From the NCBI GenBank assembly GCA_036160735.1, contig JAYYDR010000051.1:10830-74829 (forward strand): a DNA stretch of 64,000 nucleotides. The letters run 5' to 3'. The position numbers and the translations under genes are program-made. The stretch is from Thermoplasmatota archaeon. GTDB lineage: Archaea > Thermoplasmatota > Poseidoniia > Poseidoniales > Poseidoniaceae. The notes beneath the pieces were generated by a model, which did not search any database, was not told the origin of the DNA, and worked only from the letters and a program-made list of their open reading frames with translations. This document shows positions 3,201 to 56,937 of the stretch, piece after piece; the stretch's first letter is position 1; every line of letters starts with the position of its first letter.

Positions 3201-6047
3201 TTCAATAGCATTTCCATTCGCTGGAGCGAGAACAACTGCGCCCGGTAAACCGTTGACTCCATTGTCTGCAATCAAATTTGCATAAATTCTCAGTTCAGGG
3301 GTATCTTCCCATGCAGTGTTCACTCTGAATCTCCAGGTAACATGCATTTCGTCTCCAACCTCGGTGTAAGAAGAAGATTCCATTGTAACTAAGTTGTCTG
3401 GATCATACGCTTCATTGAATAGTGAGAGTTCTGAGAAAGACAACTCTACTAGACCACTGGAGGATTCCATCCTCAGCCTTGCCTCTGCAAATGCCGCATT
3501 TGTAGAGGAGTCAATGCTGTGAATTGACTTAACTTCGATAATGTCACCGTTAGGGTACAGACCGGTTGGGTTACCGGTAATGGAAATAGAGGAGTCATAT
3601 CCGGATGCAGTGTTAATTGCGAGGTCAGAGAGCATAACTGCTCCTCCCGAGCCACCACTAAATGCAATCGGTACAGCAACTTGTGCACCACTACCTAATG
3701 CAATACCCTGATTCAACTCTCGGTCGAAGTTCGCTGCAGCTCCGAGTGTTGTTTCCCATTCGTACACAATGTCGAGGTTTCCGACACTTACCTGTGTACC
3801 ACTAGATGCATTTTGGTTTGAAACCTTGAACTGGAAAGTTGCCCATTCGTTACCGTAAGCATCAATGTGTGATGCTTGTAGTAACGGGTTGTCCATCAGA
3901 GAGTTAATGGCGTCCTTGAAAGCGATTCTTGGATACATTGTCTCGTGTGCTAGTATGGACTGATTTGGCATAGTACCTAGCGCGGCAACTTGACCGCTTG
4001 CCACAAGTGAGAGGTCGAATGCACCCGCTGTATTGTCATAGAGAATTACGTCTGCCAAATTGATTTCTGAACCAATTGGTAACATGAACCCAGCGCCTGT
4101 CGCTTCACCATTAATATTCAGAGTAAGCGTTGAATTATCCATGCCATAGTTGACACCATCTACTGCGCCTGCCCAAAAGGTTGTTTGGCGCCCGAATGCA
4201 CCAAATGCTGGTTCATTCATTCCCCACTCTACATCGCCATCGTTAGCAATATCGATTTCTACTCCTGTCGAACTGTGACCGAATTCTAGGTCAAACCACA
4301 ACTCTGACATATCACATGGATTCTCGTAAAATAAAATTGACGAGAAACCAAATATTGGGCTATCAGGCACCCACTTTTGTCCGACGGTTACGTTTTGTAT
4401 CGTCTCGTCTCTAAGAGTCAACTCGATGGTTGCGGCCTCTGCACAGTTGTCTACTACCACCGGTGTAACTCCAACGATTGGCTGAGAGAACTTAGTTCTT
4501 GGAATAGGCGGGCTGAAAGAGTAATCCAAAATTGATGGCTCGTAAATTATTGGTTCAGCACCTCCTTGAGAGTACCAAACGCCATCAATTATGGATGGAC
4601 TGCTGATAATGTTAGTATCATTGAGACCTGTTCCGATTCTGGTTCCGATTGTGATTCCATGTAGAACTGCTGTGGACAGTTTGTATTGCCCAGTATCGAA
4701 ATCAAATCGCAAGTCGATTACAGGATATTCAGAGGCATCGATGCCCCACAGTTCGATAATTGGCCCTTCAAGATTGGTTACTTGATTTCCGTCTCTGTCC
4801 ATAACAACTTCAGTTGTTCCGCCTCTTAGAGCAGTAACCGTTAGAGAGTTGGTTGGAGTAGTTTCTTGCTCTAATGTCAAGATACCATATCCATCAGGGA
4901 AACCGGGATTTGGATTCTGCTTTGGAGTGAATCCCTTCACTGTCATCCATCCGGACTGGGGAAGTGGGTTACCCATTCGGAAATCATCAATAAACCAACC
5001 AGGCATTGTTGTATTTTCAGGGGCACCTGCACCAGAATTGTGCTTCATTACGAACTTCATTTGGACATATTTTCCTGCATGAGCTTGCAGGTTTACTGCC
5101 ATGTCTGCCCAACCGTCAGGGTTGAGGGTCGGGTGGGTTGATTCTCCACCTAGTGCATAATCTGTACCTGATAGTGCATCGCATGATTGAATCTTACCAT
5201 TTCCAAACCCGATTGGATACAAACCATTCACATAACCTACTCCAGAAGAATTAGCAACGTCGAAAGGAATGTAACTCCATGAAGACAACTGGTCTACAGG
5301 TGGGAAGCTATTAGGTGATGATGAGTTTCTGACCATAACATAACCACAGTCGTGGTAGGTGTTTGTTGGGTTGGTACCAGGGTTGGTTTGTGTCCAATGC
5401 AGGCCGTGCCAACTAGAGAAGCGAGCAATGAAAGCACCCGGGTCGACTTCCATCGAAGGGGTTACCAAACTTGTTGAATACGCCCCATTGTCATCGGTTG
5501 TGTAATCATTATCGAAATCGTACATGTTTGTACCCCAACACTCGTTACCTGTGTTACAATTGTCATTGAGAACAGATCCGTCTCCTAGAGTTCCATGTTC
5601 CCAACCAGGAGATGTCATCAATGGAGGAGAGGTTGCATCTCTGAATCCACCGTTTGTTCTTTCAAAATCTGTAGAGTAGCCACCGCTAACTAGACTCACG
5701 GTGTCTTCTGTGTAAGTAAAATCGCTTTGTGTGGAGAATTCAGTTTGTTGGTTATTGTAAAATGGATCCCAAACATATTGTGCGCTATCAGAGTTGATTG
5801 TTGTGTAGGTTTCATGGGTAGCCATGTCGGTTGAAATCTTCACACTAGCACTAGTCACAGTGTCGCCTGATGGAAGATTTACTGTTCCGTCTACTATGTT
5901 TGTATAATCTGGACCGTCTCTGACTTCGACAGTTACCTCACTTTCTCCGCCACTGAATGTGCTAACATTTGCTGCTCCAGCCATAGGTGAGATAATCATC
6001 AAAACTGAGAATACTAAAGCGGTAATTGCGCTCTTATTGTCTTTCAT
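219..6047 (-). CDS. Giant secreted surface (glyco)protein of ~1942 aa: N-terminal signal peptide, long Asn/Thr/Ser/Gly-rich beta-rich ectodomain with many N-x-S/T sequons, C-terminal TM helix, EYEYEYEEE acidic patch and ~90-aa Pro/Ala-rich cytoplasmic tail. Candidate S-layer protein or adhesin.
   Basis: 1986-aa ORF. An internal Met at codon 45 (MKDNKSAITALVFSVLMIISPMAGAANVS) gives a classical signal peptide, so start is set at 6047. C-terminal segment MLIVIGLSTLILILLLVVVVLARRG is a TM anchor. The whole body is a continuous ORF with biased composition. Confidence 0.8.
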   Translation of the reverse strand: MKDNKSAITALVFSVLMIISPMAGAANVSTFSGGESEVTVEVRDGPDYTNIVDGTVNLPSGDTVTSASVKISTDMATHETYTTINSDSAQYVWDPFYNNQQTEFSTQSDFTYTEDTVSLVSGGYSTDFERTNGGFRDATSPPLMTSPGWEHGTLGDGSVLNDNCNTGNECWGTNMYDFDNDYTTDDNGAYSTSLVTPSMEVDPGAFIARFSSWHGLHWTQTNPGTNPTNTYHDCGYVMVRNSSSPNSFPPVDQLSSWSYIPFDVANSSGVGYVNGLYPIGFGNGKIQSCDALSGTDYALGGESTHPTLNPDGWADMAVNLQAHAGKYVQMKFVMKHNSGAGAPENTTMPGWFIDDFRMGNPLPQSGWMTVKGFTPKQNPNPGFPDGYGILTLEQETTPTNSLTVTALRGGTTEVVMDRDGNQVTNLEGPIIELWGIDASEYPVIDLRFDFDTGQYKLSTAVLHGITIGTRIGTGLNDTNIISSPSIIDGVWYSQGGAEPIIYEPSILDYSFSPPIPRTKFSQPIVGVTPVVVDNCAEAATIELTLRDETIQNVTVGQKWVPDSPIFGFSSILFYENPCDMSELWFDLEFGHSSTGVEIDIANDGDVEWGMNEPAFGAFGRQTTFWAGAVDGVNYGMDNSTLTLNINGEATGAGFMLPIGSEINLADVILYDNTAGAFDLSLVASGQVAALGTMPNQSILAHETMYPRIAFKDAINSLMDNPLLQASHIDAYGNEWATFQFKVSNQNASSGTQVSVGNLDIVYEWETTLGAAANFDRELNQGIALGSGAQVAVPIAFSGGSGGAVMLSDLAINTASGYDSSISITGNPTGLYPNGDIIEVKSIHSIDSSTNAAFAEARLRMESSSGLVELSFSELSLFNEAYDPDNLVTMESSSYTEVGDEMHVTWRFRVNTAWEDTPELRIYANLIADNGVNGLPGAVVLAPANGNAIENDALISAFELRNDAGDLQDLTAATSNQNINLMGSIRLEGLDVAPDPTAYNLSLQRWDVQTVNGTVVSEWIEISNKSGVIGGDFDWDVDLGSTAAGQATYRFMIDGYEGGDTLCPPAPIVADSDCAIPFNLSIDTYSPTLINISVLKASNFDQSIWSNWRNLVDDTWVLPNAQQKVRVLAQDIPEPPTTLDMYYWVEYDHDADMDGIADPDEYAILTLYSDGNLPTANYTGTFSDDANKGQDPPGKVSIYVEGTDIGGNPIDGGMAGFDNDLVTYVSMDAKTPNIRNFFIEDSDRNRLHNPSEGAPFYQGPWNMTMYAGNQYHLIVEATDENGWRDINYFQIDLGPDDMVVYYSPRNETAWTESDDIEIIEAGDDSEGPQVLRMDGGRLIDPFEDEFYLDLPIRMNWDIIGIGGGTMIPQLRIKDMDRDPSLMSESGGRHKQRWVYSDGIQLDFRNGITPSFTDMDYPYSQDVEVAFVFPSDTILMEGQYAYVDGINFGVYVLPEGEFTVEITRQEAMMDGSKGYFAYPAGGADGSKTDGPTLHTIDGGAFAINITAPPINNEYTYTFRLVDLPDGATDTTAQICDGNSANGCGSFKIKVDASQPEIDDDSWEASSGLNGEVFGNTMPSSALNCVNVEAVIEENAALIAGEVNLMWSYYVDADTNQTWPVYGQKFGINPLSAPLDLKIQGGDYLVSANCVDLWPDPVSPTQSQLTGIDIVLWIEGRDSAGWEIEAGGPTVGLDGIEGVSGIYSSDPIHNSEYRLVYEEASFKVIDVRMTPKSPEVGDTPELEITLKNDGTKDGNITLEIQSVKDGGFPTTELTFTTDEIAMGTTENIFVTDLEVFGNPTSGMYFIIVDAESNMPLWNGSEFSKSFNVAEASDDGGFLSGSGMLIVIGLSTLILILLLVVVVLARRGSSDGTYEYEYEYEEEVDKAVVDLPRAGPPSAGPPAASVDPTMAAAMAEFPQWDQATIQGYFDQGWDIDSLRDWVNNNQ

Positions 6048-6111
6048 TGGGCTACCCTCTTTGCCTACGGAGGCAAGTTCGGCATAAAAGACCGACGGGA
6101 GTGTGAGCAAA

Positions 6112-6139
6112 CGGGTTCCCCCCTTTAGGGGGGGACCCG
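6112..6139. terminator. GC-rich stem-loop (cgggttcccccc-ttta-gggggggacccg) in the 101-bp gap between two minus-strand genes, 6 nt after the stop of the upstream gene.
   Basis: 12-bp arms with one G-U/mismatch, read directly. GC-rich island in AT-moderate context. Confidence 0.4.
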
Positions 6140-6145
6140 AATGGT

Positions 6146-6811
6146 TCACAAATTTACGACTCTTAATTTTGAATAACAATCCTTAGCAAGGTGCTGCAAG
6201 CCACCTACCCTCTCTTCAGACCTCTCGAGCCACTCTTTGTTTGCTACAGTCGTTGGCTTACTAGGACCAAGGGCGTCGCAAATCTCTGGACCTTCACTGA
6301 TCTCCAAGGTCCCAATATTCCTTGCCATCGTCATTATATCCACTTTATCGAATGCTAATAATGGTCGAAGAGTTATGAGGTCTGATGCTATCTCAATACC
6401 ACCAAGGTTACCCAAAGTTTGGCTGGAAACTTGCCCTAGATTCTCACCCGTGAGCAAATGTGTTGCTTCTATTTCGTGACCCCTGATTGTTGCTATGGAA
6501 CTGAACAGTCTCTTCATGTGTATGAAATATTCAGTGTGATTCCACTTTTCAGTGAACAATGCTAACTTTTCAGCAACAGGTACAACCACTAACTCTCTTG
6601 ACAAATTTTCACGGGCTGCATCTCCAAGCGGCCCCTCAAAATCTAGCAAATATCGAAGCAGGGCAACCGTTTTCTGTTCAGGACCTGGACCAGTGATGGG
6701 TTCTTGTGATGCATGAACTGGGTATATTTTCCAGCCTTTCATCAACATTCGAGCAACCGCAACAGGAGAATCGATTCCGCCACTAACAAGTGCGACACAG
6801 ACTCCCGACAT
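6146..6811 (-). CDS. ThiI-like PP-loop ATP pyrophosphatase domain protein (tRNA sulfurtransferase C-terminal AANH domain, no THUMP domain).
   Basis: SGGIDSPVA PP-loop motif and GENLGQVSSQTLGNL ThiI signature. The supplied ORF extends to 7048, but the upstream 79 codons show no THUMP-like sequence and would overlap the divergent thioesterase gene. Start chosen at Met80 (MSGVCVALVSGGIDS). Confidence 0.6.
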   Translation of the reverse strand: MSGVCVALVSGGIDSPVAVARMLMKGWKIYPVHASQEPITGPGPEQKTVALLRYLLDFEGPLGDAARENLSRELVVVPVAEKLALFTEKWNHTEYFIHMKRLFSSIATIRGHEIEATHLLTGENLGQVSSQTLGNLGGIEIASDLITLRPLLAFDKVDIMTMARNIGTLEISEGPEICDALGPSKPTTVANKEWLERSEERVGGLQHLAKDCYSKLRVVNL

Positions 6812-14917: not shown

Positions 14918-16159
14918 TTGACGAGAAATATTTTCGACGGTATTCTGAACCAGAAAACTCTGTTTGTCGAAAAAGAAGTTCTGCGTCACACTTACCAGCC
15001 AGAAACACTCCCACACCGTGATTATGAGCGTGACCAATTATCGTTCAATCTAGTTGAAGCCCTCAAAGGTCACATTCCTTCTAACATGATTCTCTACGGT
15101 GTTACTGGAGCAGGAAAAACTGCGGTTACTAGATACGTATGTGACCAACTCCAAGCCAAAGGTGAATCAATAGGAAGAGTGGTTCATCCTGTACTAGTTA
15201 ACTGCAGACAGATTGACACACAATATAGGGTTCTGTCCCACTTAGGCAATGCATTACTCGAAGATTACGAGAGAGATGAAATCCCCTTCACAGGTTGGCC
15301 AACAGACAGAGTGTTCTCCGAAGTTGTAAGAAGAATGAACCAGAGAGGTGGAGTTTACGTTCTTGTGCTCGACGAAATCGATCACTTGGTAAAGAAAGCA
15401 GGAGACGATCTACTGTACAACCTTACAAACCTTAACGCAGAGTTGGTAGATGCGAGAGCATGTGTAATCGGAATTTCCAACGATTTGAAGTTCACAGATT
15501 TCCTTGACCCGAGAGTAAGAAGCAGGCTCGGTCAGCAAGACATCGTTTTCAATCCCTACAATGCTGAACAACTTCAGGATATCCTACGCTCCAGAGCCGA
15601 AGTTGGAATCAACAAAGATGCAATCGGTGCGGGTGTAATTGAATTGTGCGCTGCATTAGCTGCCCAAGAACACGGTGATGCACGCTGCGCGCTTGACTTA
15701 CTAAGAGTCTCAACCGAAAAGGCAGAACAAGAAGGGCTTGACGTCGTTGAACAAAACCACGTCCGAATCGCACAAGCACAGATTGAATCTGACCAAGTTA
15801 CTCCAGTTATTCGCACACTACCAACTCAACAAAAACTCGTACTGGCTGCTGTACTTATCAACGAAAACAATGGTTTGCGGAATATGCAAACAGGTGAAGT
15901 ATACCATATCTACAAGCAGGCATGCACAAACATTGGCCAACAATTCCTTACATCGAGAAGAATATCTGGAATTATTTCCAACCTAGACATGCTTGGATTG
16001 ATTACTGCGAAGACAATTTCAAGAGGAAGATATGGAAGAAGCAAGGAGATTAACTCCTGCATCCCGACAAACATCAATCCCTCTGACGTAATGGCAAAAG
16101 CAGAACCTGCACTGAGTGAGGTTTTCCAAGCAAAATACCGCCATCAATCTAGACTTTGA
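14918..16159 (+). CDS. cdc6: Orc1/Cdc6 replication initiator (AAA+ ATPase with C-terminal winged helix).
   Basis: N-terminus IFDGILNQKTLFVEKEVLRHTYQPETLPHRDYERDQL, Walker A GVTGAGKT, Walker B VLVLDEID, sensor motifs. 413 aa. Confidence 0.9.
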   Translation: MTRNIFDGILNQKTLFVEKEVLRHTYQPETLPHRDYERDQLSFNLVEALKGHIPSNMILYGVTGAGKTAVTRYVCDQLQAKGESIGRVVHPVLVNCRQIDTQYRVLSHLGNALLEDYERDEIPFTGWPTDRVFSEVVRRMNQRGGVYVLVLDEIDHLVKKAGDDLLYNLTNLNAELVDARACVIGISNDLKFTDFLDPRVRSRLGQQDIVFNPYNAEQLQDILRSRAEVGINKDAIGAGVIELCAALAAQEHGDARCALDLLRVSTEKAEQEGLDVVEQNHVRIAQAQIESDQVTPVIRTLPTQQKLVLAAVLINENNGLRNMQTGEVYHIYKQACTNIGQQFLTSRRISGIISNLDMLGLITAKTISRGRYGRSKEINSCIPTNINPSDVMAKAEPALSEVFQAKYRHQSRL

Positions 16160-35970: not shown

Positions 35971-36633
35971 ATGGCGAGGCGAATTGGTATTGCAGATACC
36001 ACTACTACCAAAGTAACAGGGCGCCCTCCAATTCTAATCTTAATCGCAGGTGCAACAGGCGTTGGTAAATCGACGACCGCAGTGAAGTTCGCCAACGAGC
36101 ACTCATTTGCTAGATTGCTCTCAACAGATGCAATTAGAGAAATCATGCGTGTACAGGGTAGTGAAGAAAATAATGCTCTACATCGCTCTTCGTTTTCAAG
36201 AGGAGAGTCTGGAGACGCTGTATTGGATTGGCAAGATACATGCAAAGCCGTAGAAGCTGGCATTCAAGCAACTATTGAGAGGGCAAGAAGAGAAGGTATA
36301 GACCTAATTTTGGAGGGAGTTCACATCGAACCAAGTTCTCGTTTGCTAAGATCTTGGAGGGACTCTGGCGGTATTGCCATCGGAATAGTAATGCACGTCG
36401 ATGACGAATCTCAACACATTAGTTTCCTAAAGCAAAGAGAAAGCCATTCATTTAGGAACGCAGACAGATACATTTCCGCACTTCCAAGGATTAGAGCAAT
36501 ACAAGATTCTCTCAAAGAGAAGGCTAGAATCGCAGACTGGAATAAACTTGACCCGACTATTGTCAAAGACAGTCTTGACAGAATGAATCACTGGCTTGAC
36601 TTAGCGTGGAACGAGTGGCGAAAATCGCATTAA
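35971..36633 (+). CDS. P-loop kinase, 2-phosphoglycerate-kinase-like family.
   Basis: ILILIAGATGVGKSTTA Walker A. Start at the internal MARRIG to avoid overlap with the divergent ALDH gene. Confidence 0.4.
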   Translation: MARRIGIADTTTTKVTGRPPILILIAGATGVGKSTTAVKFANEHSFARLLSTDAIREIMRVQGSEENNALHRSSFSRGESGDAVLDWQDTCKAVEAGIQATIERARREGIDLILEGVHIEPSSRLLRSWRDSGGIAIGIVMHVDDESQHISFLKQRESHSFRNADRYISALPRIRAIQDSLKEKARIADWNKLDPTIVKDSLDRMNHWLDLAWNEWRKSH

Positions 36634-37103
36634 GCATCCAAGTCGATTTCGAACGAGATTATTCTAGTTAGCATTGAATTTCTATCAGCTGCACCCAGTT
36701 CACTAGATACTGAAATTACCCCATCTGACTCGGTAACTGTAATGTTGAGGAGTTTCAACTCAACACCTCTAATTTCTCCATGATGCAACACGTCATCATG
36801 GAGTGAATCGATTGATTTCTGTACGCTTTCGATCTCTGACAGGCCCGAATCATACCATACTTGTGCTCTTGCTTCAGTAATATCAGGCAAACTGTCTGCA
36901 ATATCACCGGATGCTTGGATTGTATCATCACCTGCAGTATCGTATGGCATTGAAATTCCAGCCATCTTGACTGCGAAAATTGCCATTGATAGCAAGGACA
37001 TCATTAGAACAACTCCAGTTGCTAGTAGCATCTGTCCTTCTTCACCTCTCTTGTTTGAGCGCATCAAGAACCACGCTCCCACAAATCCAAACTGATTGTC
37101 CAA
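36630..37103 (-). CDS. Small pilin-like / pilus-associated protein with an N-terminal hydrophobic segment (possible class III signal peptide, KRG-EEGQMLLATGVV).
   Basis: Last gene of the Tad-like pilus operon. N-terminal basic region, then a hydrophobic helix. Confidence 0.35.
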   Translation of the reverse strand: MDNQFGFVGAWFLMRSNKRGEEGQMLLATGVVLMMSLLSMAIFAVKMAGISMPYDTAGDDTIQASGDIADSLPDITEARAQVWYDSGLSEIESVQKSIDSLHDDVLHHGEIRGVELKLLNITVTESDGVISVSSELGAADRNSMLTRIISFEIDLDA

Positions 37104-37501
37104 AGGTGGCCGTCTACTACAACAAGGCCGTGTGAGTTAACTGTACCAGAGCCAGGTGTTGCAACCTCACCATAGGGCTGAGAAGTTCCTGAGTCCTTCG
37201 CTAACCAGCAATTTGCTTCAACTCCAGATGCAAGGTAATTCTGAACCAATTCACATGCAGCATCGCTCTCGCCCGCTGCAAGAAGTTCTGCTAATCTTGA
37301 ATCATAGTCACTCTCTAAGGCCGGTGTTGCAAGGCCAAGATTGATTGCATCCTCTCCTGCGAATTGCATCTCTGCATCGACAGAGATACTGGCTTCGTCT
37401 GGAACATGAACCGTAATCAGAAAAGCTGCGGTCATGAAGAATAGCCAAAACAGAGTAAGCATCTCAAGGATGTGAATCTGTGCATTCTCATCATCACGCA
37501 A
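37064..37501 (-). CDS. Small pilus-associated protein with an N-terminal TM helix.
   Basis: Operon position and hydrophobic N-terminus ILEMLTLFWLFFMTAAFLI. Confidence 0.35.
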   Translation of the reverse strand: MRDDENAQIHILEMLTLFWLFFMTAAFLITVHVPDEASISVDAEMQFAGEDAINLGLATPALESDYDSRLAELLAAGESDAACELVQNYLASGVEANCWLAKDSGTSQPYGEVATPGSGTVNSHGLVVVDGHLWTISLDLWERGS

Positions 37502-37510
37502 GATATCACC

Positions 37511-39025
37511 TCATGGCGAGAATGTTCCTGCCGCAGGACTCAACTGCGGTAAGGTCGTCACACCGATGAGATCTGGTGAGAATACAATCACGTTGAAACA
37601 CATAATTGCAAGCAGAATCATCATTCCAGAGTGCTTCATTCCGCTAGTGAATCGACCAGTAGCCATGAGGCCCGCCATCGATCCATTACCTAATGCTTGC
37701 ATTGTTACACCATAATAGAAAATCGTAAGGAAGAACAGAGGCTCAATGTTTCGAATGACCATGTTTCCTAACTGCTGGCCTCCACCACCGTCTTCAGAAT
37801 CAGAGTTTGAACCTGCGATAGCAGGAATGAAAACCTTAGCTAGAACAACAATAACACCCAAGAAAACACCGTACGATGTCCAAATAACGGAAATATACGA
37901 TGCAATCGAACGTTTTCTCTCGCCCTCGAGGAACTTCAACTCACGACTGTCATTAGCGGCAGTAACGAGAATGTCAGAAATCTTACCGCCCGCTCTATTC
38001 GCTTCAGAAATCAGCGATATAGCACGCAAAACAAGCGGTGTTCCAACCCTTGCTGCGAACATTTCAATAACGTCACCAAATGCTACACCCCATGATAACT
38101 GGTCACTCATTTTCTTAACTTCGTGATTCAGGGCGCCGTATTCACTCGTCGCTAACGTTTGAACCGCCACCGTCATAGACAAACCACCTTTCCAATATTC
38201 TGCAAGGTCTCTCAGGAAATCTGGGAATTTTTCTTCCATTTGGTTCGTCTTTTCTTTTACTCTATCCCAGTAGAATGAAGCAGGCCAGAACATTATGAAG
38301 AAACCTAAACCGAAGAAATTCAAGAAAATTGTTGGTCTCAATGACAGACCACCTAGTTCAACTTCTGGACCAATCCACTGTGATTTGTTATTCATATTTT
38401 CAGGTATGCCATCATAGTAGTCCATCTTCAATTTGAACGTCGCTTCTTGAACTACGTTTTCAGAGATAATAACAACTTGATACAAGTTTCCTTTCTCGAC
38501 ATTCTGGATGTAAATTTGACAATCGTCATCATTGGAGTGAGTATTGCCGGAGTACCTCGTCATTTCTTGACCTGCAGGGTCATAAATTATGAAGGAATAA
38601 TCAGAGGGAATTGCAGCTTCGACATCACAAGTTCCAGTCATGGTTTGGTCGGGTAAAACGTTGGCAGTCACGTTCTCGTCCATCCCTGGGACATCGAATA
38701 ACTGACCTAGTCCAACGAATTCCTTCCACGGCTCCTCGGGAACCATAACCAACTGGTCAGGCTCATCCTTAAGCAAATCGAATTGGCATGATTCGTTATC
38801 GTCAAAGGTTGGAATGTAATTTGGGTCATATCCACAAACTGTGTTCACGAATAATGGCTGTCCATTTGGGGCGGTTGTGAAGTGTGAATTGGTGACCCAA
38901 AAAGTGAATGATGCAAGGCCGAGGAAAATGCTGACACCGAGAATAGCATACAACTTTGTTAGAGTAGTATCGTCTTTTGGTAAATCCAACTTTACGATGA
39001 TTTTCTCTTTCTTTTTTCGTGCCAT
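37511..39025 (-). CDS. Type IV pilus / Tad-like platform protein (TadC/FlaJ-like, T2SF domain) with an unusual ~190-aa Cys-containing extracytoplasmic N-terminal domain.
   Basis: T2SSF-like region LVLRAISLISEANRAGGKISDIL. TM1 followed by a domain with 4 Cys, then several TM helices. Confidence 0.65.
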   Translation of the reverse strand: MARKKKEKIIVKLDLPKDDTTLTKLYAILGVSIFLGLASFTFWVTNSHFTTAPNGQPLFVNTVCGYDPNYIPTFDDNESCQFDLLKDEPDQLVMVPEEPWKEFVGLGQLFDVPGMDENVTANVLPDQTMTGTCDVEAAIPSDYSFIIYDPAGQEMTRYSGNTHSNDDDCQIYIQNVEKGNLYQVVIISENVVQEATFKLKMDYYDGIPENMNNKSQWIGPEVELGGLSLRPTIFLNFFGLGFFIMFWPASFYWDRVKEKTNQMEEKFPDFLRDLAEYWKGGLSMTVAVQTLATSEYGALNHEVKKMSDQLSWGVAFGDVIEMFAARVGTPLVLRAISLISEANRAGGKISDILVTAANDSRELKFLEGERKRSIASYISVIWTSYGVFLGVIVVLAKVFIPAIAGSNSDSEDGGGGQQLGNMVIRNIEPLFFLTIFYYGVTMQALGNGSMAGLMATGRFTSGMKHSGMMILLAIMCFNVIVFSPDLIGVTTLPQLSPAAGTFSP

Positions 39026-39040
39026 TTTCTCACCTCCTCA

Positions 39041-40060
39041 TCACATCTTTTGCTCTTCGCTTGACGACCAAACAATAAACGCAAACATAGCGTGAATCAT
39101 AGGCAATACAAGCAGGACCACCGCATACAGGGTACTCTCTTCCATCTGGGCACCTGCACCGCTAACCCAGAACATAATGACCAACATAACGATTAGGAAA
39201 AGTGGCATTGCTACTGCAACAACAACGTATGATTCTGCAAGCATTGCGAGGGACTCTAGGAACTCTTGCAATCTTGTTCTGTTCTCACGCATGTAGTGTT
39301 CAGCACGGTTCAGGAAGTACAATTTCAGTGAACCTCCAGCGGTTAGTGTACCGACCATTCCTTGGAAGAATTCAGTCATCCACGGTGAAGCTGCTCTGTC
39401 TACAGCCATTTTCATCGCAGTAAGTAAATCATAACCTAACAGTGAGACGTCTCGATAGATCATCGAAGAATCGTATGCGATTTCACCGTAGATATCTCCA
39501 TTCAATGCCAGTGATTTGAAAATCTTGTGAGGCGTTGCATTCGCCGCAGCCATTGCTGCCGTGTAGGAAGCAGCGTAAGGAAGGTACTTCTCAAGTGCTA
39601 CTCCTCTAGCATGCGCTGCTCTTGCTGCAGACCCTTTCAGGAATCTGAAGGTTCCGAATGGGACCACGAATCCGAGTAAAACTGGAATCAGAATCTTTGC
39701 AAATAATGGGAATTCCATATATTGGAAGTACGGGCAGCCTCTGCTTTCGAGGGTTTCATCAACCAAGTCAGCATTCCAGTATTCCCATTCATAGCATGCG
39801 TATGCGTAGTTCATGTCTGGTCTCGATTCGTACCAAGCGATTAGGCCGATATCAGGAAGAAAGACTCCAGCCAGTAAAATCGCACAGATGATAGTAACTG
39901 CGACAGTAGTTACGAATAATTGGGCCATGTATACCTCAGGCATAATTGGCATGTTCCCTTTAACGAGGTCATCAGATAACTTCGCATCACCTCTCGCCTT
40001 CTTCTTGAAAGCTCTACCTAGGATACGATGACAAATCTTCTGCCATGCGGTTAACTCCAT
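39041..40060 (-). CDS. Type IV pilus / Tad-like platform protein (TadB-like, T2SF domain). Contains an extracytoplasmic loop with the motif CYEWEYWNADLVDETLESRGCP.
   Basis: T2SSF-like region QEFLESLAMLAESYVVVAVAMPLFLIVM. Multiple TM helices. Confidence 0.65.
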   Translation of the reverse strand: MELTAWQKICHRILGRAFKKKARGDAKLSDDLVKGNMPIMPEVYMAQLFVTTVAVTIICAILLAGVFLPDIGLIAWYESRPDMNYAYACYEWEYWNADLVDETLESRGCPYFQYMEFPLFAKILIPVLLGFVVPFGTFRFLKGSAARAAHARGVALEKYLPYAASYTAAMAAANATPHKIFKSLALNGDIYGEIAYDSSMIYRDVSLLGYDLLTAMKMAVDRAASPWMTEFFQGMVGTLTAGGSLKLYFLNRAEHYMRENRTRLQEFLESLAMLAESYVVVAVAMPLFLIVMLVIMFWVSGAGAQMEESTLYAVVLLVLPMIHAMFAFIVWSSSEEQKM

Positions 40061-40084: not shown

Positions 40085-41617
40085 TCAGCGTAGACCATCA
40101 ACACGTGCTAGGATTTCATGCGGCCTGACGTAGTACTCGGTGATGATTTGACTCACTTGGTCGGCTTTTCTAATATCGTTCAAAACCATCCATTCCAAGA
40201 TTCTCTTTCGTGTTCTTAGTTCACGACGCATTTCATCTTGGCTGAAATTGATTTTGACCATAATCTTCTCAAGAACGTAAGACTTTCCAGAGAATATGAA
40301 ATCGTCATTGGCGACATTCCATCTGAATACTTCATTTGTGATTACTTCCAAAGAGTTTGGATCAATACCAACAATCTCTACAATTTGCTTGGTTCTTCTA
40401 ACACGTCTACCGTTGATACGAGTCTGAATCTGAATTGCGCAGGCTTCTAGAGCAGGTAGCAATACACGTGGAATATCAATTGGCTTGTTCTCTAACCTGT
40501 GGACAAGTGAAGGTACAGAATCTGCGTGCACCGTTGAATAAGCACAGTGTCCAGTTGCCATGGCCTGGAACAATACGTACGCTTCTGCACCACGGATTTC
40601 ACCCACGATGATGTATTCCGGTCGTTCACGAAGAGCAGCCTTGAGCAACTCGAATTCTCCGATTTCACCTTCATTCGATTCACCACCGAAACCTTGCCTT
40701 GTTAGACCAGGAACCCAGTTCGGTTGAGGGATGTTTACTTCACGTGTGGATTCGATACTTACAATCTTCATCTGCCAAGGAATGAAGATACACATAGCGT
40801 TGAGAGTTGTTGTCTTTCCAGATGCAGTACCACCTACGAACAGCATTGGAACTTCATTCTGGAACGCGACCCAAAGGTATGCTCCCATCAGTGAAGACAA
40901 GGTACGGAAAGCGATGATGTCACACGGAGAGAACGGGTCGTCCTTGAACCTACGAATACAGAAAGCCGAACCTCTGGTTGACACTTCTCTTCCTAATTTC
41001 ATGACGATTCTTGAACCATCCATCAGTGTAGCATCCAGCAAAGGGTCCGCTACCGAAATGTGCTTTCCACAACGCTGTGCTAATTTAATGACGTAAGATT
41101 CCAATTCTTCGTCGGTTTCCCAAACACAGGTAGTTTCCACAGATTCGAATTTTCTGTGGTATGCGAAAATTGGGACATTTGTTCCGTCTAAGGAAATATC
41201 TTCCACGTTAGCGTCATTCATCAGAACGTCCATCTTTCCGTATCCGACCAGGTCACGGCGAAGGTAGTAGAAGAGTTTGGATTTGGATTTCTTGTTAATT
41301 TTCATCCCGTAAGCCTTGATGACTTTGTCCATCGCTGTACGCAAGTATGCAGTTGGGTCTGCATCGATTTCTTCGATGTTGGCCGTTAGTGAACGGATGA
41401 AGATATCCAATAACTCATCTCTCCACTCTTGCTCTTTCTTGTTCAACGGAGGTTCGATGATTTGGTAAATGATGTTCAGTGTCCTCTTATCACGGACAAT
41501 TCTAGCAAACGCGTGGGGTGGCATGACTGGGTATTTGTCAAGCTCATCGTACATTGCGCGTTGCTGGTTTCTTTGCCTTCTTTGGCGTCCACCACCTTTC
41601 CTTGCCATACGTAGCAC
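40085..41617 (-). CDS. Type IV pilus/archaellum-family secretion ATPase (FlaI/TadA/GspE/VirB11 superfamily).
   Basis: Walker A FVGGTASGKTTTLNAMC, Walker B/Asp box, His box. 510 aa. Confidence 0.85.
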   Translation of the reverse strand: MLRMARKGGGRQRRQRNQQRAMYDELDKYPVMPPHAFARIVRDKRTLNIIYQIIEPPLNKKEQEWRDELLDIFIRSLTANIEEIDADPTAYLRTAMDKVIKAYGMKINKKSKSKLFYYLRRDLVGYGKMDVLMNDANVEDISLDGTNVPIFAYHRKFESVETTCVWETDEELESYVIKLAQRCGKHISVADPLLDATLMDGSRIVMKLGREVSTRGSAFCIRRFKDDPFSPCDIIAFRTLSSLMGAYLWVAFQNEVPMLFVGGTASGKTTTLNAMCIFIPWQMKIVSIESTREVNIPQPNWVPGLTRQGFGGESNEGEIGEFELLKAALRERPEYIIVGEIRGAEAYVLFQAMATGHCAYSTVHADSVPSLVHRLENKPIDIPRVLLPALEACAIQIQTRINGRRVRRTKQIVEIVGIDPNSLEVITNEVFRWNVANDDFIFSGKSYVLEKIMVKINFSQDEMRRELRTRKRILEWMVLNDIRKADQVSQIITEYYVRPHEILARVDGLR

Positions 41618-53748: not shown

Positions 53749-56700
53749 TCACTCTCTGCGGATTAATGCAGCACCGAGTAGACCGATTGTTGCAATGAAT
53801 CCAGTGAATCCTGGGAGCATGCTCATCATTGGGTTCTCGTCGCTGTAAGCGCCAGCTTCGCTAGAGTATAGGCGAGCGAAATTCCACTCTAGGTCCACAT
53901 CCAAAGTAGCGTTGTTTATCATTACGAAGTCACCAGTAGTCAGGGTACCACTCTCATCTGAGTCAACAAACACGATGGCTTGTGTCAGCATAGCTACCAT
54001 TGCTGCTTCCTCGGATTCAACCATTATCTCAGATAGTGCGACTGAGTATACTGTCTCTGTACACACAATATCTGACAAAGACGTTCCGTCGCACATTGCT
54101 AGCTCAACACGATAGTCGTCAATATCTGCACCAAATGGTAGCACACCGAACACCATATACATCTTCATGTCTTCAGCGTCTCCATCTTCCATGTCTTCCA
54201 TTTCGCTCATGAATGTCATGAATTCATCAAAATCAAGACCGCCTGAATCGTCATCATCGTAATTATCCATCATTCCAGCAAACATGTCGAATTCGTCCTC
54301 AGACATTGGCTCGTCAGTTGAATTAGAGAAATCGAACCATTCGCTGGCAGTGACTTCACCGTCACCGTTTGTATCGAGCATGTTGAACATCATCTCTGGA
54401 TCCATGTCGCCATCATCATCTCCCATGTTATCCATATTGTCCATCATGTTGACGAACTCAGAGAAGTTTAGGCCGCTAGAGTTGTCTTCATCGAACATCT
54501 CAATCATCATCGAAAGTCCATTCCAGTCTTCCTCGGTAATTCCTTCCCCTGACTGGTTCATCATGTCAGCCCATTCACTGGCAGTCACTTCTCCGTCTTC
54601 ATTCGCATCGAACATGTCGAACATCATCTGTGGGTCAAAATCATCATCATCTGATTCAACTGAAATTATCAAACCGCTTTGAGTTGCTTCATCGTATTGA
54701 TACATGATTAGCGTCTCTCCCCAGCCACTTACGATTAGGAAAGCGCTTCCATCTGCATCGGTAATGTTTCCAATCCATTCCGTACACATGCTGGTGTTGT
54801 TGTCATAATCTCCGTCACAATCCATGTAGTTGTTCTCGTGGGTGGTTTCCCACAACATTGTGGTGTTCGCATCATAGTAAATCTCACCTTGTTCACATAC
54901 GGTCTCGTTCCCTTGCATCCAACATTCTTCCCAAATTAGGTTGGTTGGCATGGTAAATGTGGAGTTGTCAAACTCGTACATATCGTAGGATAAATTGGTG
55001 CTGATGATTTCCATTCCACATATCGAGTAATCCAAACTTGAATTGTCGAAGATTGAGAATCCTGCGGAATTCTGTGCAACGAATGGCGTACAGGAGTAGA
55101 AAGGTTCTGGTTCTTGTGGGTAATCGTACCAGCACCTCCAAGTGCCATTAGATTCCAATTCGCAGTTTTCCCACCCGTCGGCTCCTTCAGGTGTGACGCA
55201 TTCATAGAAATCAGTTTCATTATCGTAATTGCAGTTGTCGTAGTAGTAGTACTCTACGTCTTCATTGTCTTCATCTGCGTAACCTACAAAGCACATCCAA
55301 GAGCCATTGGACTCTAGAGAGCAGTCTTCGTAATTGTAGCCGTGACTCTCTTCATAGTCGCCGTCGCCGTCGTGATCCCACTCGTCCATCCAGCATTCGT
55401 AATAATTGCCTTCATCGGTACAGTTGTCGTAGTAGTGGAACACTTCTTCTCCAGGCCCATCACCGGACTCATCTGAACCGTCTTCACAATCTGGATACCC
55501 GTCATTTACCCAATCCGATGGGATTGTTTCTCCGTTATCACACACGAAGTCGTCATCTGAACCGCCATCATCTCCACCATCGTATCCGTTGGTGTATCTG
55601 TCGTTGTCAGCTGAGTTTGCATAATCAGAGGACTGTCCATAGTCATCCGTACAATACCAGTCGCCTTCGTGAAGTTCACAGTAGTACCACCAGTTTTCCC
55701 AATCTGAATCGGATTGGTCTTCTTTGCAAGACCATCGAACATCGTCGTCTGGGTTTCCTTCCCACTCGCAATAACCACCCATGTATGGGTACCAAGATGT
55801 GTCATCTCCAGAGTCTCCATCTCCAGAATCTGACATGTCGAACAGAACGTATGGTAGCGCAGAAAGTGCGATCGTGTTATCGGTTGAGGTATCACCAGAT
55901 TCAATCATCATGAATTCTACCCAGTTATCCTCTTCTTCTGCGTCTTCCATCGTGAATCCAAGAACCTTGAAGGTCGAGTCAGTATGGATTTCTAAGTAAC
56001 TGAAAGGCGCATCATCAATGTTTAGAGAACCACTGAAAGTGAATCCTGTTTCATCGGGTGCAAATCCAGTGATTGTTGCGGATAGAGGATTGAAGTACTG
56101 TGTGTAGTCATTAACATCAACCTCGCCAAAGTCTGCCATTTCTTGCATGTCTTCCATGTCATCGCTAGGACCGCTGCTTGCAGGGACCCACATGTATCCA
56201 TCACCCTCACAGGTCATTTGGTCATAATATTCGAAAAGAACCATGTGAGTGCTCATATCGTAGCAGACCATATCATCGTCACCGCTACCCATGTCATCGT
56301 CATAACTTCCCATATCATCGTCATCATCATCAGACATCATCATCTCCATAGCATCCTCAAAAGTTTCTGCATGTTTCATTCTAACGGTGAAATCTTCAGT
56401 TGAGTTCTTGATGTGGAATTGAACTTCATTGCCTGAGATAATAATCTCAGAGGATTCTGTTTCTCCATCAATAGTATGTTCCATCGTAGACTTGAATCCT
56501 GTTGGAGTGATTACTGTGGTTTCCATGTAGTGAATGGATACTTCAACAACATCAGGACATCCATTGTATGGTTGATTCTCATCTACCTGGTCTGGATTCC
56601 AATATTCCCACTCGTAGCAAGATTCCATGTCAACGTAAACTTCTGACATTTCCATTGAGTAACCAACTGTTGTGTCAAGTGTTTCCATGTCTGGTCCATC

Positions 56701-56937
56701 CTCAATCATGGTGATAAAGTCGACAATTGTTGCCTCGAGGGAATCCTCATGTACACACAAATCGTCACTGGCGTTGGTTACATTTGCAACGTAATTTAGG
56801 GCTGTCTCATCTCCACAGCCTACGATTTCTAATGTGTCTTCTATAAGGTCTTCAATAACCTCTTCAGCGTCTTCTGTTCCTAAACATCCTGCCAGCAGGA
56901 GCAGGGCTGTCATACATAGAGCGAGTGCTTTTTGCAT
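53749..56937 (-). CDS. Extremely acidic (Asp/Glu-rich, also Met/Tyr/Trp/Cys-rich) 1062-aa surface lipoprotein with lipobox (LLLAGC) and C-terminal PGF-CTERM archaeosortase signal. Contains two EF-hand pairs, an LDL-receptor-A-like calcium cage, Cys-rich CxLESNGxWxC repeats and a CYEWEYWN motif.
   Basis: C-terminus PGFTGFIATIGLLGAALIRRE. EF loops DANEDGEVTASE, DTNGDGEVTASE and DDDDSGGLDFDE. WVNDGYPDCEDGSDE. Runs DDDDDD. Confidence 0.8.
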   Translation of the reverse strand: MQKALALCMTALLLLAGCLGTEDAEEVIEDLIEDTLEIVGCGDETALNYVANVTNASDDLCVHEDSLEATIVDFITMIEDGPDMETLDTTVGYSMEMSEVYVDMESCYEWEYWNPDQVDENQPYNGCPDVVEVSIHYMETTVITPTGFKSTMEHTIDGETESSEIIISGNEVQFHIKNSTEDFTVRMKHAETFEDAMEMMMSDDDDDDMGSYDDDMGSGDDDMVCYDMSTHMVLFEYYDQMTCEGDGYMWVPASSGPSDDMEDMQEMADFGEVDVNDYTQYFNPLSATITGFAPDETGFTFSGSLNIDDAPFSYLEIHTDSTFKVLGFTMEDAEEEDNWVEFMMIESGDTSTDNTIALSALPYVLFDMSDSGDGDSGDDTSWYPYMGGYCEWEGNPDDDVRWSCKEDQSDSDWENWWYYCELHEGDWYCTDDYGQSSDYANSADNDRYTNGYDGGDDGGSDDDFVCDNGETIPSDWVNDGYPDCEDGSDESGDGPGEEVFHYYDNCTDEGNYYECWMDEWDHDGDGDYEESHGYNYEDCSLESNGSWMCFVGYADEDNEDVEYYYYDNCNYDNETDFYECVTPEGADGWENCELESNGTWRCWYDYPQEPEPFYSCTPFVAQNSAGFSIFDNSSLDYSICGMEIISTNLSYDMYEFDNSTFTMPTNLIWEECWMQGNETVCEQGEIYYDANTTMLWETTHENNYMDCDGDYDNNTSMCTEWIGNITDADGSAFLIVSGWGETLIMYQYDEATQSGLIISVESDDDDFDPQMMFDMFDANEDGEVTASEWADMMNQSGEGITEEDWNGLSMMIEMFDEDNSSGLNFSEFVNMMDNMDNMGDDDGDMDPEMMFNMLDTNGDGEVTASEWFDFSNSTDEPMSEDEFDMFAGMMDNYDDDDSGGLDFDEFMTFMSEMEDMEDGDAEDMKMYMVFGVLPFGADIDDYRVELAMCDGTSLSDIVCTETVYSVALSEIMVESEEAAMVAMLTQAIVFVDSDESGTLTTGDFVMINNATLDVDLEWNFARLYSSEAGAYSDENPMMSMLPGFTGFIATIGLLGAALIRRE

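What the first reader, a model, noticed from the sequence alone, without database searches (positions are those of the whole stretch)
39731..39796. Shared Cys-flanked CYEWEYWN-D-VDE-GCP motif between pilus platform protein and acidic PGF-CTERM surface protein
The TadB-like platform protein (39041-40060) has ACYEWEYWNADLVDETLESRGCPY in an extracytoplasmic loop. The acidic PGF-CTERM protein (53749-56937, motif at 56554-56619) has SCYEWEYWNPDQVDENQPYNGCPD. That is 15/24 identical residues, with about 25/30 identity at the nucleotide level (tgctatgaatgggaatactggaatgctgac vs tgctacgagtgggaatattggaatccagac). Two conserved Cys bracket the motif, suggesting a small disulfide-closed module used by both a pilus-assembly membrane protein and a cell-surface calcium-binding protein. 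The module may be a docking or recognition element linking the pilus machinery to the surface protein, or a mobile mini-domain.
Basis: seen in the sequence. Interest (0 to 1): 0.75.

Follow-up and report, generated by a model that had tools for sequence, protein, structure and literature searches.

The report
Shared mini-domain in marine archaeal surface proteins
The shared motif is real, but it is not a private link between the pilus protein and one surface protein: it is an undescribed 24-residue, cysteine-bracketed mini-domain that Marine Group II archaea place just outside the membrane in their pilus platform protein and in many unrelated anchored surface proteins.

Summary
CYEWEYWN…GCP occurs exactly twice in the window: in the T2SSF (TadB-like) platform protein at nt 39725-39796 and in the acidic EF-hand/LDLa surface protein at nt 56548-56619. 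A profile of the motif scores 43 and 55 bits there and no more than 8.6 bits anywhere else.

The motif is not peculiar to this pair. All 120 listed TadB orthologues from Poseidoniales (Marine Group II) carry a Cys-bracketed loop starting at the same residue. A profile search of 1.84 billion proteins and DNA-pattern scans of genomes and metagenomes found the same module (consensus CEEWEYWNPDLVDxSLPGNGCPxY) in dozens of otherwise unrelated surface proteins.

- It occurs in one to three copies, nearly always 6-36 residues before a C-terminal anchor or transmembrane helix.
- Every named genome hit is an MGII-type MAG. Viral contigs gave none.
- Pfam, NCBIfam, PDB sequences and the literature have no match.
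- AlphaFold predicts the same helix–turn–short-helix unit in both window proteins.
- Synonymous sites between the two window copies are saturated, so this is not recent conversion.
- The surface protein's module is equally distant (~60%) from every other module group, so the two copies have no special relationship.

Best reading: a lineage-specific, shuffled, membrane-proximal mini-domain. Its function is inferred only.

The parts
39725..39796 (-). Module copy 1 (aa 89-112 of the TadB-like protein): CYEWEYWNADLVDETLESRGCPYF
   Evidence: HMM score 43.2 bits. A Cys-bracketed loop at the same residue in all 120 listed orthologues, 119 with the canonical W-x-Y-W core. AF2 predicts a helix ending at W95, a turn, and a short helix before Cys109, with pLDDT about 80-84.
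39713..39862 (-). Extracytoplasmic TM1-TM2 loop of the TadB-like protein (aa 67-116), which holds the module
   Evidence: Hydropathy and positive-inside rule: K+R 2, D+E 10, both Cys.
39041..40060 (-). TadB-like platform protein, 339 aa, T2SSF family
   Evidence: PF00482 45.4 bits against a 25.2 cut-off. 717 homologues, the top 120 all Poseidoniales-type.
37511..39025 (-). TadC-like second platform protein (T2SSF) with a Cys-containing N-terminal ectodomain of about 200 aa; no module
   Evidence: PF00482 45.4 bits. No module HMM hit. Present in 90 of 99 TadB loci.
40085..41617 (-). Pilus/secretion ATPase (T2SSE family) of the same operon
   Evidence: PF00437 92.3 bits. Present in 95 of 99 TadB loci.
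36630..37501 (-). Two small ORFs (37064-37501 and 36630-37103) with pilin-like N-termini; putative pilins, start codons uncertain
   Evidence: Sequence only: a charged head followed by a hydrophobic stretch, and ...NAQ/IHILE with Glu at +5. No Pfam hit. Inferred.
56548..56619 (-). Module copy 2 (aa 107-130 of the acidic surface protein): CYEWEYWNPDQVDENQPYNGCPDV
   Evidence: HMM score 54.9 bits. Conserved in orthologues P0121-P0126, P0156, L027, L028, L052 and L097. AF2 gives the same secondary structure in register, pLDDT 82-94.
53749..56937 (-). Acidic surface protein, 1062 aa: lipobox-like signal (LLAGC), beta-sheet domain carrying the module, LDLa, EF-hands, PGF-CTERM-like tail
   Evidence: 25% D+E, 1.4% K+R, 30 Cys.
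56374..56667 (-). Antiparallel beta-sheet domain (aa ~91-188); the module is an excursion between its first two strands
55465..55557 (-). LDL-receptor class A domain (aa 461-491)
   Evidence: PF00057 29 bits against a 24.1 cut-off.
54205..54633 (-). EF-hand calcium-binding region (aa ~769-911)
   Evidence: PF13499 58.2 bits and PF00036 54 bits. NCBIfam XopAW-like region 769-911.
53752..53817 (-). PGF-CTERM-like C-terminal anchor LPGFTGFIATIGLLGAALIRRE
   Evidence: PF18204 18.4 bits against an 18.8 cut-off. TIGR04126 15.3 bits against 24.5. Near threshold, not above it.

Best explanation
The motif is one instance of a previously undescribed mini-domain of about 24 residues, specific to Poseidoniales (Marine Group II archaea). 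Its consensus is C-[E/F/Y]-x-W-E-Y-W-N-P-[DE]-L-[VI]-D-x-[ST]-L-P-G-N-G-C-P-x-Y.

Shown:
- It is a fixed, ancestral part of the outward-facing TM1-TM2 loop of the TadB-like pilus platform protein across the order.
- The same unit has been shuffled into many unrelated surface proteins. It occurs singly or as two or three tandem copies.
- It nearly always sits 6-36 residues outside a C-terminal PGF-CTERM-like anchor or a transmembrane helix. In lipobox proteins such as the window's acidic protein it sits near the N-terminal anchor instead.
- It is the most conserved stretch of the one ectodomain family measured.

Predicted: a short helix carrying Cys1, W4 and W7, then a turn and a short helix that bring Cys21 back towards Cys1.

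Inferred:
- The two Cys form a disulfide staple, and the Trp, Leu, Val and Pro residues form a tiny Trp-cage-like core, so the unit folds on its own.
- Most likely role: a common membrane-proximal 'foot'. It would place the pilus platform and the anchored adhesin-type proteins in the same basal envelope layer, by binding one shared envelope partner or by binding other copies of itself.

It is not a private link between the two proteins in this window.
For: Orthologue conservation in TadB: all 120 listed orthologues have the Cys-bracketed loop starting at the same residue, with C, W and C invariant and E, Y, W, N, L and G at least 90% conserved.

Other carriers: the profile search of 1.84 billion cluster representatives gave 36 hits, about two thirds of them non-TadB proteins with TSP3, LDLa, EF-hand or no known domains.

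All named records are MGII-type MAGs; about 99 matches are TadB and 19 are other proteins.

Metagenome scan for the non-TadB form: 35 loci. In 30 of the 33 evaluable loci a TM or anchor follows within 6-36 residues. Six loci carry tandem copies.

No prior description: Pfam, NCBIfam, PDB sequences and the literature give no match.

Structure: AF2 gives the same secondary structure in register in both contexts.

Modularity: an in-frame deletion in two metagenomic alleles removes the unit.

Constraint: mean pairwise identity is 0.91 for the module against 0.72 for the upstream ectodomain in a 12-member family. In TadB it is 0.63 against 0.32-0.52 for its immediate flanks.

Topology: the loop is outside the membrane.
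Against: - The functional part is inference only. No partner was identified, no coordinates were available to check Cys-Cys geometry, and no experiment exists.
- The module is not always next to the membrane. In the LDLa/EF-hand family (P0140, L034, L128, L155) it lies about 276-300 residues from the anchor. In the window's protein it lies 89 residues after the lipobox Cys.
- Some anchored surface proteins lack it, for example the 1986-aa protein at 219-6179, so it is not needed for anchoring.
- Very high conservation in so small a fold could reflect folding constraints alone.
- The AF2 model of the surface protein used TadB loops in its alignment, so the two models are not independent.
Confidence: 0.6

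Rival explanations
1. It is a purely structural stalk or spacer element: a rigid, protease-resistant knot that caps the acidic linker next to the anchor and has no binding partner. Its presence in TadB would simply stiffen a loop.
For: It occurs as 1-3 tandem copies separated by acidic linkers directly before anchors. Most conserved residues (W, W, L, V, P, G, C) are what a 24-residue fold needs for a core and its turns.
Against: This does not explain why the same unit is fixed in a polytopic pilus platform protein across the whole order. It also does not explain why acidic and polar positions (E5, N8, D13, N19) are nearly invariant in unrelated contexts.
Confidence: 0.25
2. It is a private docking or recognition pair. 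The TadB loop and the acidic surface protein carry matching modules so that this surface protein is recruited to, or handled by, this pilus machine.
For: Both proteins are in the same 64-kb window. The ~16.8-kb spacing and the strand are kept in a related MAG, WTIA01000075.1. Both modules share Tyr or another aromatic at position 2, which is typical of TadB modules.
Against: The module occurs in dozens of other protein families. The big protein's module is equidistant (0.60, 0.61, 0.61) from own-genus TadB, other TadB and other surface modules. The big-protein family is confined to close relatives, whereas the TadB module is order-wide. None of 54 non-TadB module loci has a pilus ATPase or TadC nearby.
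Confidence: 0.04
3. It is part of a sorting or processing signal: a pre-anchor element read by an archaeosortase-type or other envelope-processing enzyme, comparable to domains that precede PGF-CTERM.
For: In most non-TadB carriers it lies 6-36 residues upstream of a PGF-CTERM-like or Loki/Heimdall-CTERM-like tail.
Against: It is also found in a polytopic protein that needs no sorting (TadB), before uncleaved TM helices that have ~85-residue cytoplasmic tails, in the middle of proteins, and near N-terminal lipoboxes. The window's own PGF-type protein has it about 900 residues from its tail.
Confidence: 0.06
4. It is a small metal (Ca2+)-binding or membrane-interface element. Either the acidic residues bind calcium, or the W-x-Y-W face inserts into the outer leaflet.
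For: Conserved E, D and N positions. Carriers are rich in Ca2+-binding domains: EF-hand, LDLa, TSP3. In TadB the module ends only about 5 residues before TM2.
Against: No match to any known Ca2+-binding motif model. In surface proteins a strongly acidic linker of 6-36 residues separates the module from the membrane, which argues against lipid insertion.
Confidence: 0.04
5. It is a chance or low-complexity match, or a product of recent gene conversion or mobile DNA between the two genes.
For: None beyond the 25/30 nt identity over the first ten codons.
Against: 0 of 100 shuffles give 2 matches. HMM scores are 43-55 bits against 8.6 for the best other ORF. 8 of 13 synonymous-capable identical codons differ and the flanks are unrelated.
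Confidence: 0.01

Closest known systems
GspF/PilC/TadB-TadC platform proteins (Pfam T2SSF, PF00482) of type IV filament machines
   Same: The carrier at 39041-40060 is a member. It has a T2SSF domain above threshold, a partner T2SSF protein and a T2SSE ATPase in the same operon, and a polytopic topology with the T2SSF domain on the cytoplasmic side.
   Different: A folded, Cys-bracketed mini-domain in the outward-facing TM1-TM2 loop is not a feature of the family at large. The module profile, run against 1.84 billion proteins, hit only Poseidoniales-type TadB clusters.
C-terminal sorting anchors of archaeal surface proteins (PGF-CTERM, PF18204/TIGR04126; Loki-/Heimdall-CTERM) and the domains that precede them
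   Same: Most non-TadB carriers end in module, acidic linker, [LIV]P[GSA][FIV]G-type hydrophobic helix and a basic tail. One (P0140) passes Pfam PGF-CTERM.
   Different: The module is not part of the sorting-signal models. It also occurs without such a signal: in TadB, in type-I proteins with cytoplasmic tails, and in N-terminal positions. The window protein's tail is just below the PGF-CTERM cut-offs.
Small disulfide-stabilised extracellular modules shuffled among surface proteins (LDL-receptor class A, EGF-like, thrombospondin repeats)
   Same: Same evolutionary behaviour: a Cys-bracketed, autonomous unit of a few dozen residues or less, found in varying copy number and in varying domain company. 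It co-occurs with LDLa and TSP3 repeats in the same proteins.
   Different: It has only one Cys pair and about 24 residues, shows no sequence relation to any of these families, is confined to a single archaeal order, and strongly prefers a position next to the membrane anchor.
WSXWS motif of class I cytokine receptors and the W-x-x-W motif of thrombospondin type 1 repeats (analogy from my own knowledge, not tested)
   Same: A conserved W-x-x-W signature (WEYW) in the membrane-proximal part of an ectodomain.
   Different: No FnIII or TSR fold and no homology. C-mannosylation is not known in archaea. This is an analogy only.
Trp-cage-type miniproteins and disulfide-stapled helical hairpins (analogy from my own knowledge)
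   Same: The predicted short helix bearing Trp residues is followed by a Pro/Gly-rich return segment.
   Different: The fold is predicted, not solved. No coordinates were available to test Trp burial or Cys-Cys distance.

Membership tests
T2SSF platform protein (PF00482; TadB/TadC, GspF, PilC, FlaJ) | T2SSF domain above the curated threshold | tested here: met
   45.4 bits against a 25.2 cut-off, residues 166-292. NCBIfam gives weak ArlJ/FlaJ and UpsF similarity, below the equivalog cut-offs.
T2SSF platform protein (PF00482; TadB/TadC, GspF, PilC, FlaJ) | Encoded next to a T2SSE-family ATPase (and, for the Tad type, a second single-domain T2SSF protein) | tested here: met
   ATPase at 40085-41617 (PF00437, 92.3 bits) and a second T2SSF protein at 37511-39025. 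The arrangement is kept in 95 and 90 of 99 related loci.
T2SSF platform protein (PF00482; TadB/TadC, GspF, PilC, FlaJ) | Polytopic membrane protein with the T2SSF domain in the cytoplasm | tested here: met
   Four hydrophobic segments. The K+R distribution places residues 1-47 and 136-266 inside and 67-116 outside. This is a prediction only.
T2SSF platform protein (PF00482; TadB/TadC, GspF, PilC, FlaJ) | Required for assembly of a type IV filament | not testable with these tools
   The organism is uncultured. Pilin candidates were identified from sequence only.
PGF-CTERM sorting domain (PF18204 / TIGR04126) | C-terminal PGF motif, hydrophobic helix and basic tail scoring above the curated cut-off | tested here: inconclusive
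   LPGFTGFIATIGLLGAALIRRE has the three parts, but it scores 18.4 against 18.8 (Pfam) and 15.3 against 24.5 (NCBIfam).
PGF-CTERM sorting domain (PF18204 / TIGR04126) | A cognate archaeosortase (ArtA) in the genome | not tested
   None was identified among the window ORFs scanned. The rest of the genome is not available.
EF-hand calcium-binding proteins | EF-hand domains above threshold | tested here: met
   PF13499 58.2 bits, PF00036 54 bits, PF13405 44.3 bits.
LDL-receptor class A module | Ldl_recept_a domain above threshold | tested here: met
   PF00057 29 bits against a 24.1 cut-off, residues 461-491.
Any curated domain family or solved structure covering the 24-residue module | A Pfam, NCBIfam or PDB-sequence match over the module | tested here: not met
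   No Pfam or NCBIfam hit over the module in 20 carrier proteins. No PDB chain at E<=10 with the module profile. 'WEYWN' occurs in no paper of the library.
The module family proposed here ('WEYWN' module) | C-x2-W-x-[YF]-W ... G-C with a 19-residue Cys-Cys spacing, scoring with the module profile | tested here: met
   Both window copies score 54.9 and 43.2 bits with a profile built from other carriers (the window's big-protein copy was one of the 33 sequences in that profile).
The module family proposed here ('WEYWN' module) | Extracytoplasmic location | tested here: met
   The TadB loop is outside by topology. The other carriers have signal peptides or lipoboxes and C-terminal anchors.
The module family proposed here ('WEYWN' module) | Intramolecular disulfide and an autonomous fold | not testable with these tools
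   AF2 secondary structure is consistent in the two contexts, but no coordinates are available and there is no experiment.

The most novel reading that the evidence does not exclude
The module is a homotypic or common-partner docking element. It would physically tie the Tad-like pilus platform and the set of anchored adhesin-type proteins into one membrane-proximal scaffold, for example on the underside of the still unknown MGII cell envelope or S-layer. The pilus base and the adhesins would then be co-organised. That would give a first molecular handle on how this uncultured, globally abundant archaeal group builds its surface and attaches to particles.
Probability: 0.2. Interest if true: 0.7.

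Novelty: new variant of a known kind. Interest (0 to 1): 0.45.

Why it matters
Marine Group II archaea are among the most abundant archaea in surface oceans. They are uncultured, and their cell envelope is essentially unknown. Genomic studies attribute their particle attachment to 'flagella/flaJ/tadC' genes and thrombospondin-like proteins (PMC6461757, PMC6864105).

A short, extremely conserved, lineage-specific module marks both the pilus platform and many anchored surface proteins. That makes it useful in four ways:
- as an annotation tool: a new domain model would flag MGII surface proteins that currently have no Pfam hit;
- as a specific epitope or peptide for probing MGII envelopes;
- as a testable lead on how pilus machinery and adhesins are arranged at the membrane;
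- as a simple case of mini-domain shuffling in archaea.

It does not change any major paradigm.

Tried and rejected
- A third homologue search with the module profile first failed because the query was under 40 aa. With a 43-column profile it collected only 8 candidates and 1 hit, because the word index does not suit so short a query. Family size therefore rests on the representative search and the DNA scans.
- Foldseek of the TadB model against the PDB gave no hit at E<=0.001, only all-helical noise.
- The AFDB library was unavailable.
- The PDB sequence search with the module profile found nothing.
- The viral contig scan gave 0 matches, so there is no sign that MGII viruses carry the module.
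- Literature searches found no description of the motif and no link between PGF-CTERM or archaeosortase and MGII.
- I looked for extra or degenerate copies in the window and in the operon neighbours (TadC, pilins, ATPase) and found none. The CEWEGNPDDDVRWSC stretch of the big protein is not scored by the module HMM.
- Recent gene conversion was considered and rejected.
- I first read the module-less alleles (P0127, P0131) as evidence that the module was a late insertion. That was rejected: more divergent orthologues (L027, L052, P0156) all have the module, and both module-less contigs carry premature stops.
- A per-genome census was not possible.
Full report
**1. Observation**

ORF 39041-40060(-) is 339 aa and reads ...ACYEWEYWNADLVDETLESRGCPY... 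ORF 53749-56937(-) is 1062 aa and reads ...SCYEWEYWNPDQVDENQPYNGCPD.... Identity is 15/24 residues, 25/30 nt over the first ten codons and 44/66 nt over the 22 codons. The flanks are unrelated.

Three tests show the match is not chance:
- A six-frame regex scan finds exactly two copies.
- A degenerate DNA pattern for C-x2-WEYWN-x11-GC finds 2 matches against 0 in 100 shuffles.
- A profile HMM of the module scores 54.9 and 43.2 bits on these two ORFs and at most 8.6 bits on any other six-frame ORF.

Of the 13 identical residues that have synonymous codons, 8 use different codons. The similarity is therefore maintained at the protein level and does not come from recent DNA exchange.

**2. The two carriers**

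The 339-aa protein is a T2SSF-family platform protein (PF00482, 45.4 bits). It lies between a T2SSE ATPase (40085-41617) and a second T2SSF protein with a large ectodomain (37511-39025). Two small ORFs with pilin-like N-termini follow. This is a Tad/Epd-like type IV filament operon. It is conserved in related loci, with the ATPase in 95 of 99 and TadC in 90 of 99.

Hydropathy and the positive-inside rule place the N-terminus (K+R 9) and the T2SSF domain (K+R 15) in the cytoplasm. The 50-residue loop 67-116, which holds the module and both Cys, is placed outside (K+R 2, D+E 10).

The 1062-aa protein is 25% D+E with 30 Cys. It has:
- a lipobox-like signal (LLAGC);
- an LDLa module;
- several EF-hands;
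- a C-terminal LPGF...RRE tail that scores just under the PGF-CTERM cut-offs (18.4 against 18.8 in Pfam, 15.3 against 24.5 in NCBIfam).

Homologues of the TadB-like protein identify the organism as Poseidoniales (Marine Group II), family Poseidoniaceae.

**3. Orthologues**

All 120 listed TadB orthologues (63-95% identity) have a Cys-bracketed loop whose first Cys falls at the same residue. In 119 of them the core is C-x2-W-[EATV]-Y-W. The exception, P0109, has a degenerate, longer version. In a 62-sequence alignment C89, W92 and C109 are invariant. E93, Y94, W95, N96, L99 and G108 are at least 90% conserved.

The N-terminal domain of the acidic protein has only a dozen close homologues, many of them fragmentary. 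The intact ones, and more divergent orthologues found later (L027, L028, L052, L097, P0156), keep the module at the same N-terminal position.

Two metagenomic alleles (L119, L120) lack it. An in-frame 87-nt deletion removes VDMES-C...C plus VVE. Both contigs also carry premature stops, so I read them as decaying or erroneous copies and not as the ancestral state.

**4. The module is general**

A 30-column profile of the module was run with HMMER against 1.84 billion cluster representatives. It gave 36 hits at E<=1e-3. About ten are TadB-like clusters or fragments. One (P0158) is a spurious repeat match.

The rest are large, mutually unrelated secreted proteins with TSP type 3 repeats, LDLa, EF-hands, a PPC-like domain, or no known domain. 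They carry an even more regular version of the module, CEEWEYWNPDLVDxSLPGNGCPxY.

In most of them the module is followed by:
- an acidic linker and a C-terminal [LIV]P[GSA][FIV]G...RRE-type anchor; or
- a TM helix with a conserved cytoplasmic tail of about 85 residues.

In lipobox proteins (P0147, P0155 and the window protein) it sits near the N-terminus. P0133 has three tandem copies.

Every record is an MGII-type MAG: Poseidoniaceae, Thalassarchaeaceae, Poseidonia, or generic Euryarchaeota, Methanobacteriota or Thermoplasmatota labels. About 99 matches are TadB, always at residue 89 of a 339-aa protein with TM2 about 25 residues later. The other 19 are different proteins.

A metagenome scan for the non-TadB form (Glu at position 2) gave 35 loci. 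In 30 of the 33 evaluable loci a TM or anchor starts 6-36 residues after the module. Six loci carry two or three copies. Viral contigs gave none.

No Pfam or NCBIfam model covers the module. No PDB sequence matches it at E<=10. The string WEYWN occurs in no paper of the library.

**5. Is there a special relation between the two window copies?**

No. The evidence:
- Mean identity of the big-protein family's module is 0.60 to its own-genus TadB modules, 0.61 to TadB modules of other genera and 0.61 to other surface-protein modules.
- No other gene of the pilus operon carries a module.
- None of the 54 non-TadB module loci has an ATPase or TadC gene within the fetched ~8 kb.
- The ~16.8-kb spacing between the two genes is kept in a related MAG, WTIA01000075.1, but that is ordinary genus-level synteny.
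- The 1986-aa anchored surface protein at 219-6179 has no module, so the module is not required for anchoring.

**6. Structure and constraint**

AlphaFold2 of the TadB-like protein (62-sequence alignment, mean pLDDT 76.6, about 80-84 over the module) predicts:
- a helix from six residues before Cys1 to W7;
- a three-residue turn at positions 9-11;
- a short helix at positions 17-20, just before Cys21.

The N-terminal region of the acidic protein (pLDDT 82-94 over the module) shows the same elements in the same register. There they form an excursion between the first two strands of an antiparallel beta-sheet domain. The natural deletion removes this excursion.

Two caveats apply. The second alignment contained TadB loops, so the two predictions are not independent.

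A helical-wheel reading places C1, W4, W7, N8 and L11 on one face. This fits a tiny hydrophobic core closed by the Pro/Gly-rich return segment (my inference).

In a 12-member surface-protein family the module has a mean pairwise identity of 0.91 against 0.72 for the 520 upstream ectodomain columns. No upstream 24-column window exceeds it. In TadB it is more conserved (0.63) than TM1 (0.40), the rest of the loop (0.52 before the module, 0.32 after) and TM2 (0.47). It is less conserved than the cytoplasmic T2SSF domain (0.81) and TM3 (0.94).

**7. Interpretation**

Shown:
- The module is lineage-specific, about 24 residues long, Cys-bracketed and extracytoplasmic.
- It is ancestral and fixed in the Poseidoniales TadB loop and has been shuffled into many anchored surface proteins.
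- It strongly prefers the membrane-proximal stalk.

Predicted: a conserved helix-turn-helix staple.

Inferred: the module folds on its own, and it serves as a common membrane-proximal element. I think the most likely role is a shared docking or packing site, either for a common envelope partner or for other copies of itself. The alternative is a purely structural stalk knot.

**8. Context in the literature**

MGII genomic studies discuss 'flagella/flaJ/flaI/tadC' genes and thrombospondin-like proteins as adhesion determinants (PMC6461757; PMC6864105). Neither mentions this motif.

**9. Verdict**

The specific interpretation is only partly right. What is there is an undescribed mini-domain family of a major uncultured archaeal order. 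It is a useful annotation and a modest biological lead, not a new kind of system.

Noticed in passing
window 56755-56820 (-), aa 40-61 of the acidic protein: A second Cys-bracketed motif, GCGDETALNYVANVTNASDDLC. It is conserved in the orthologues. From memory it resembles the GC-x-D-x2-A-x-NY...DD-x-C motifs common in marine surface proteins. No Pfam hit.
   Followed up: no
window 55726-55770 (-), aa 390-404 of the acidic protein: CEWEGNPDDDVRWSC faintly resembles the module (EWE..NPD between two Cys) and is conserved in P0156. The module HMM does not score it.
   Followed up: partly
L119:175-760 and L120:258-590: Two metagenomic alleles of the acidic protein lack the module through an identical in-frame 87-nt deletion. 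Both carry premature stop codons downstream, and L120 diverges entirely after the stop.
   Followed up: yes
window 219-6179 (-): A 1986-aa secreted type-I membrane protein with no Pfam hit. Its cytoplasmic tail begins YEYEYEYEEE. It lacks the module.
   Followed up: partly
P0138, P0157, P0166; L046, L047, L081, L122, L135, L145, L153: Module-bearing type-I proteins share a conserved cytoplasmic tail of about 85 residues...DDW[FY].E[QE]..MF.D.Y...PPP...GY.QDGYEV.EYP.GS..WWWK....G.W.EWK. Its function is unknown.
   Followed up: no
P0133; L129:2387-2728; L154:6610-6951: Three tandem modules separated by acidic linkers directly before the C-terminal anchor. Two-copy versions occur in L125, L136, L138 and L144.
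   Followed up: partly
window 37511-39025 (-): The TadC-like partner protein has an N-terminal ectodomain of about 200 aa with four Cys. That part has no Pfam match and no module.
   Followed up: no
L020 and L027 (WTIA01000075.1, contig positions ~25.0 kb and ~41.9 kb): A related MAG keeps the same ~16.8-kb spacing and the same strand between the TadB module and the acidic-protein module as the window.
   Followed up: partly
window 14918-16159 (+): A Cdc6/Orc1 gene (Cdc6_C, Cdc6_lid and AAA domains), so a replication origin may lie nearby.
   Followed up: no
P0122-P0132 (public assemblies): Orthologues of the acidic protein mostly appear as short, frameshifted or truncated ORFs on long contigs. 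This suggests the gene is poorly assembled or poorly called in public data.
   Followed up: no
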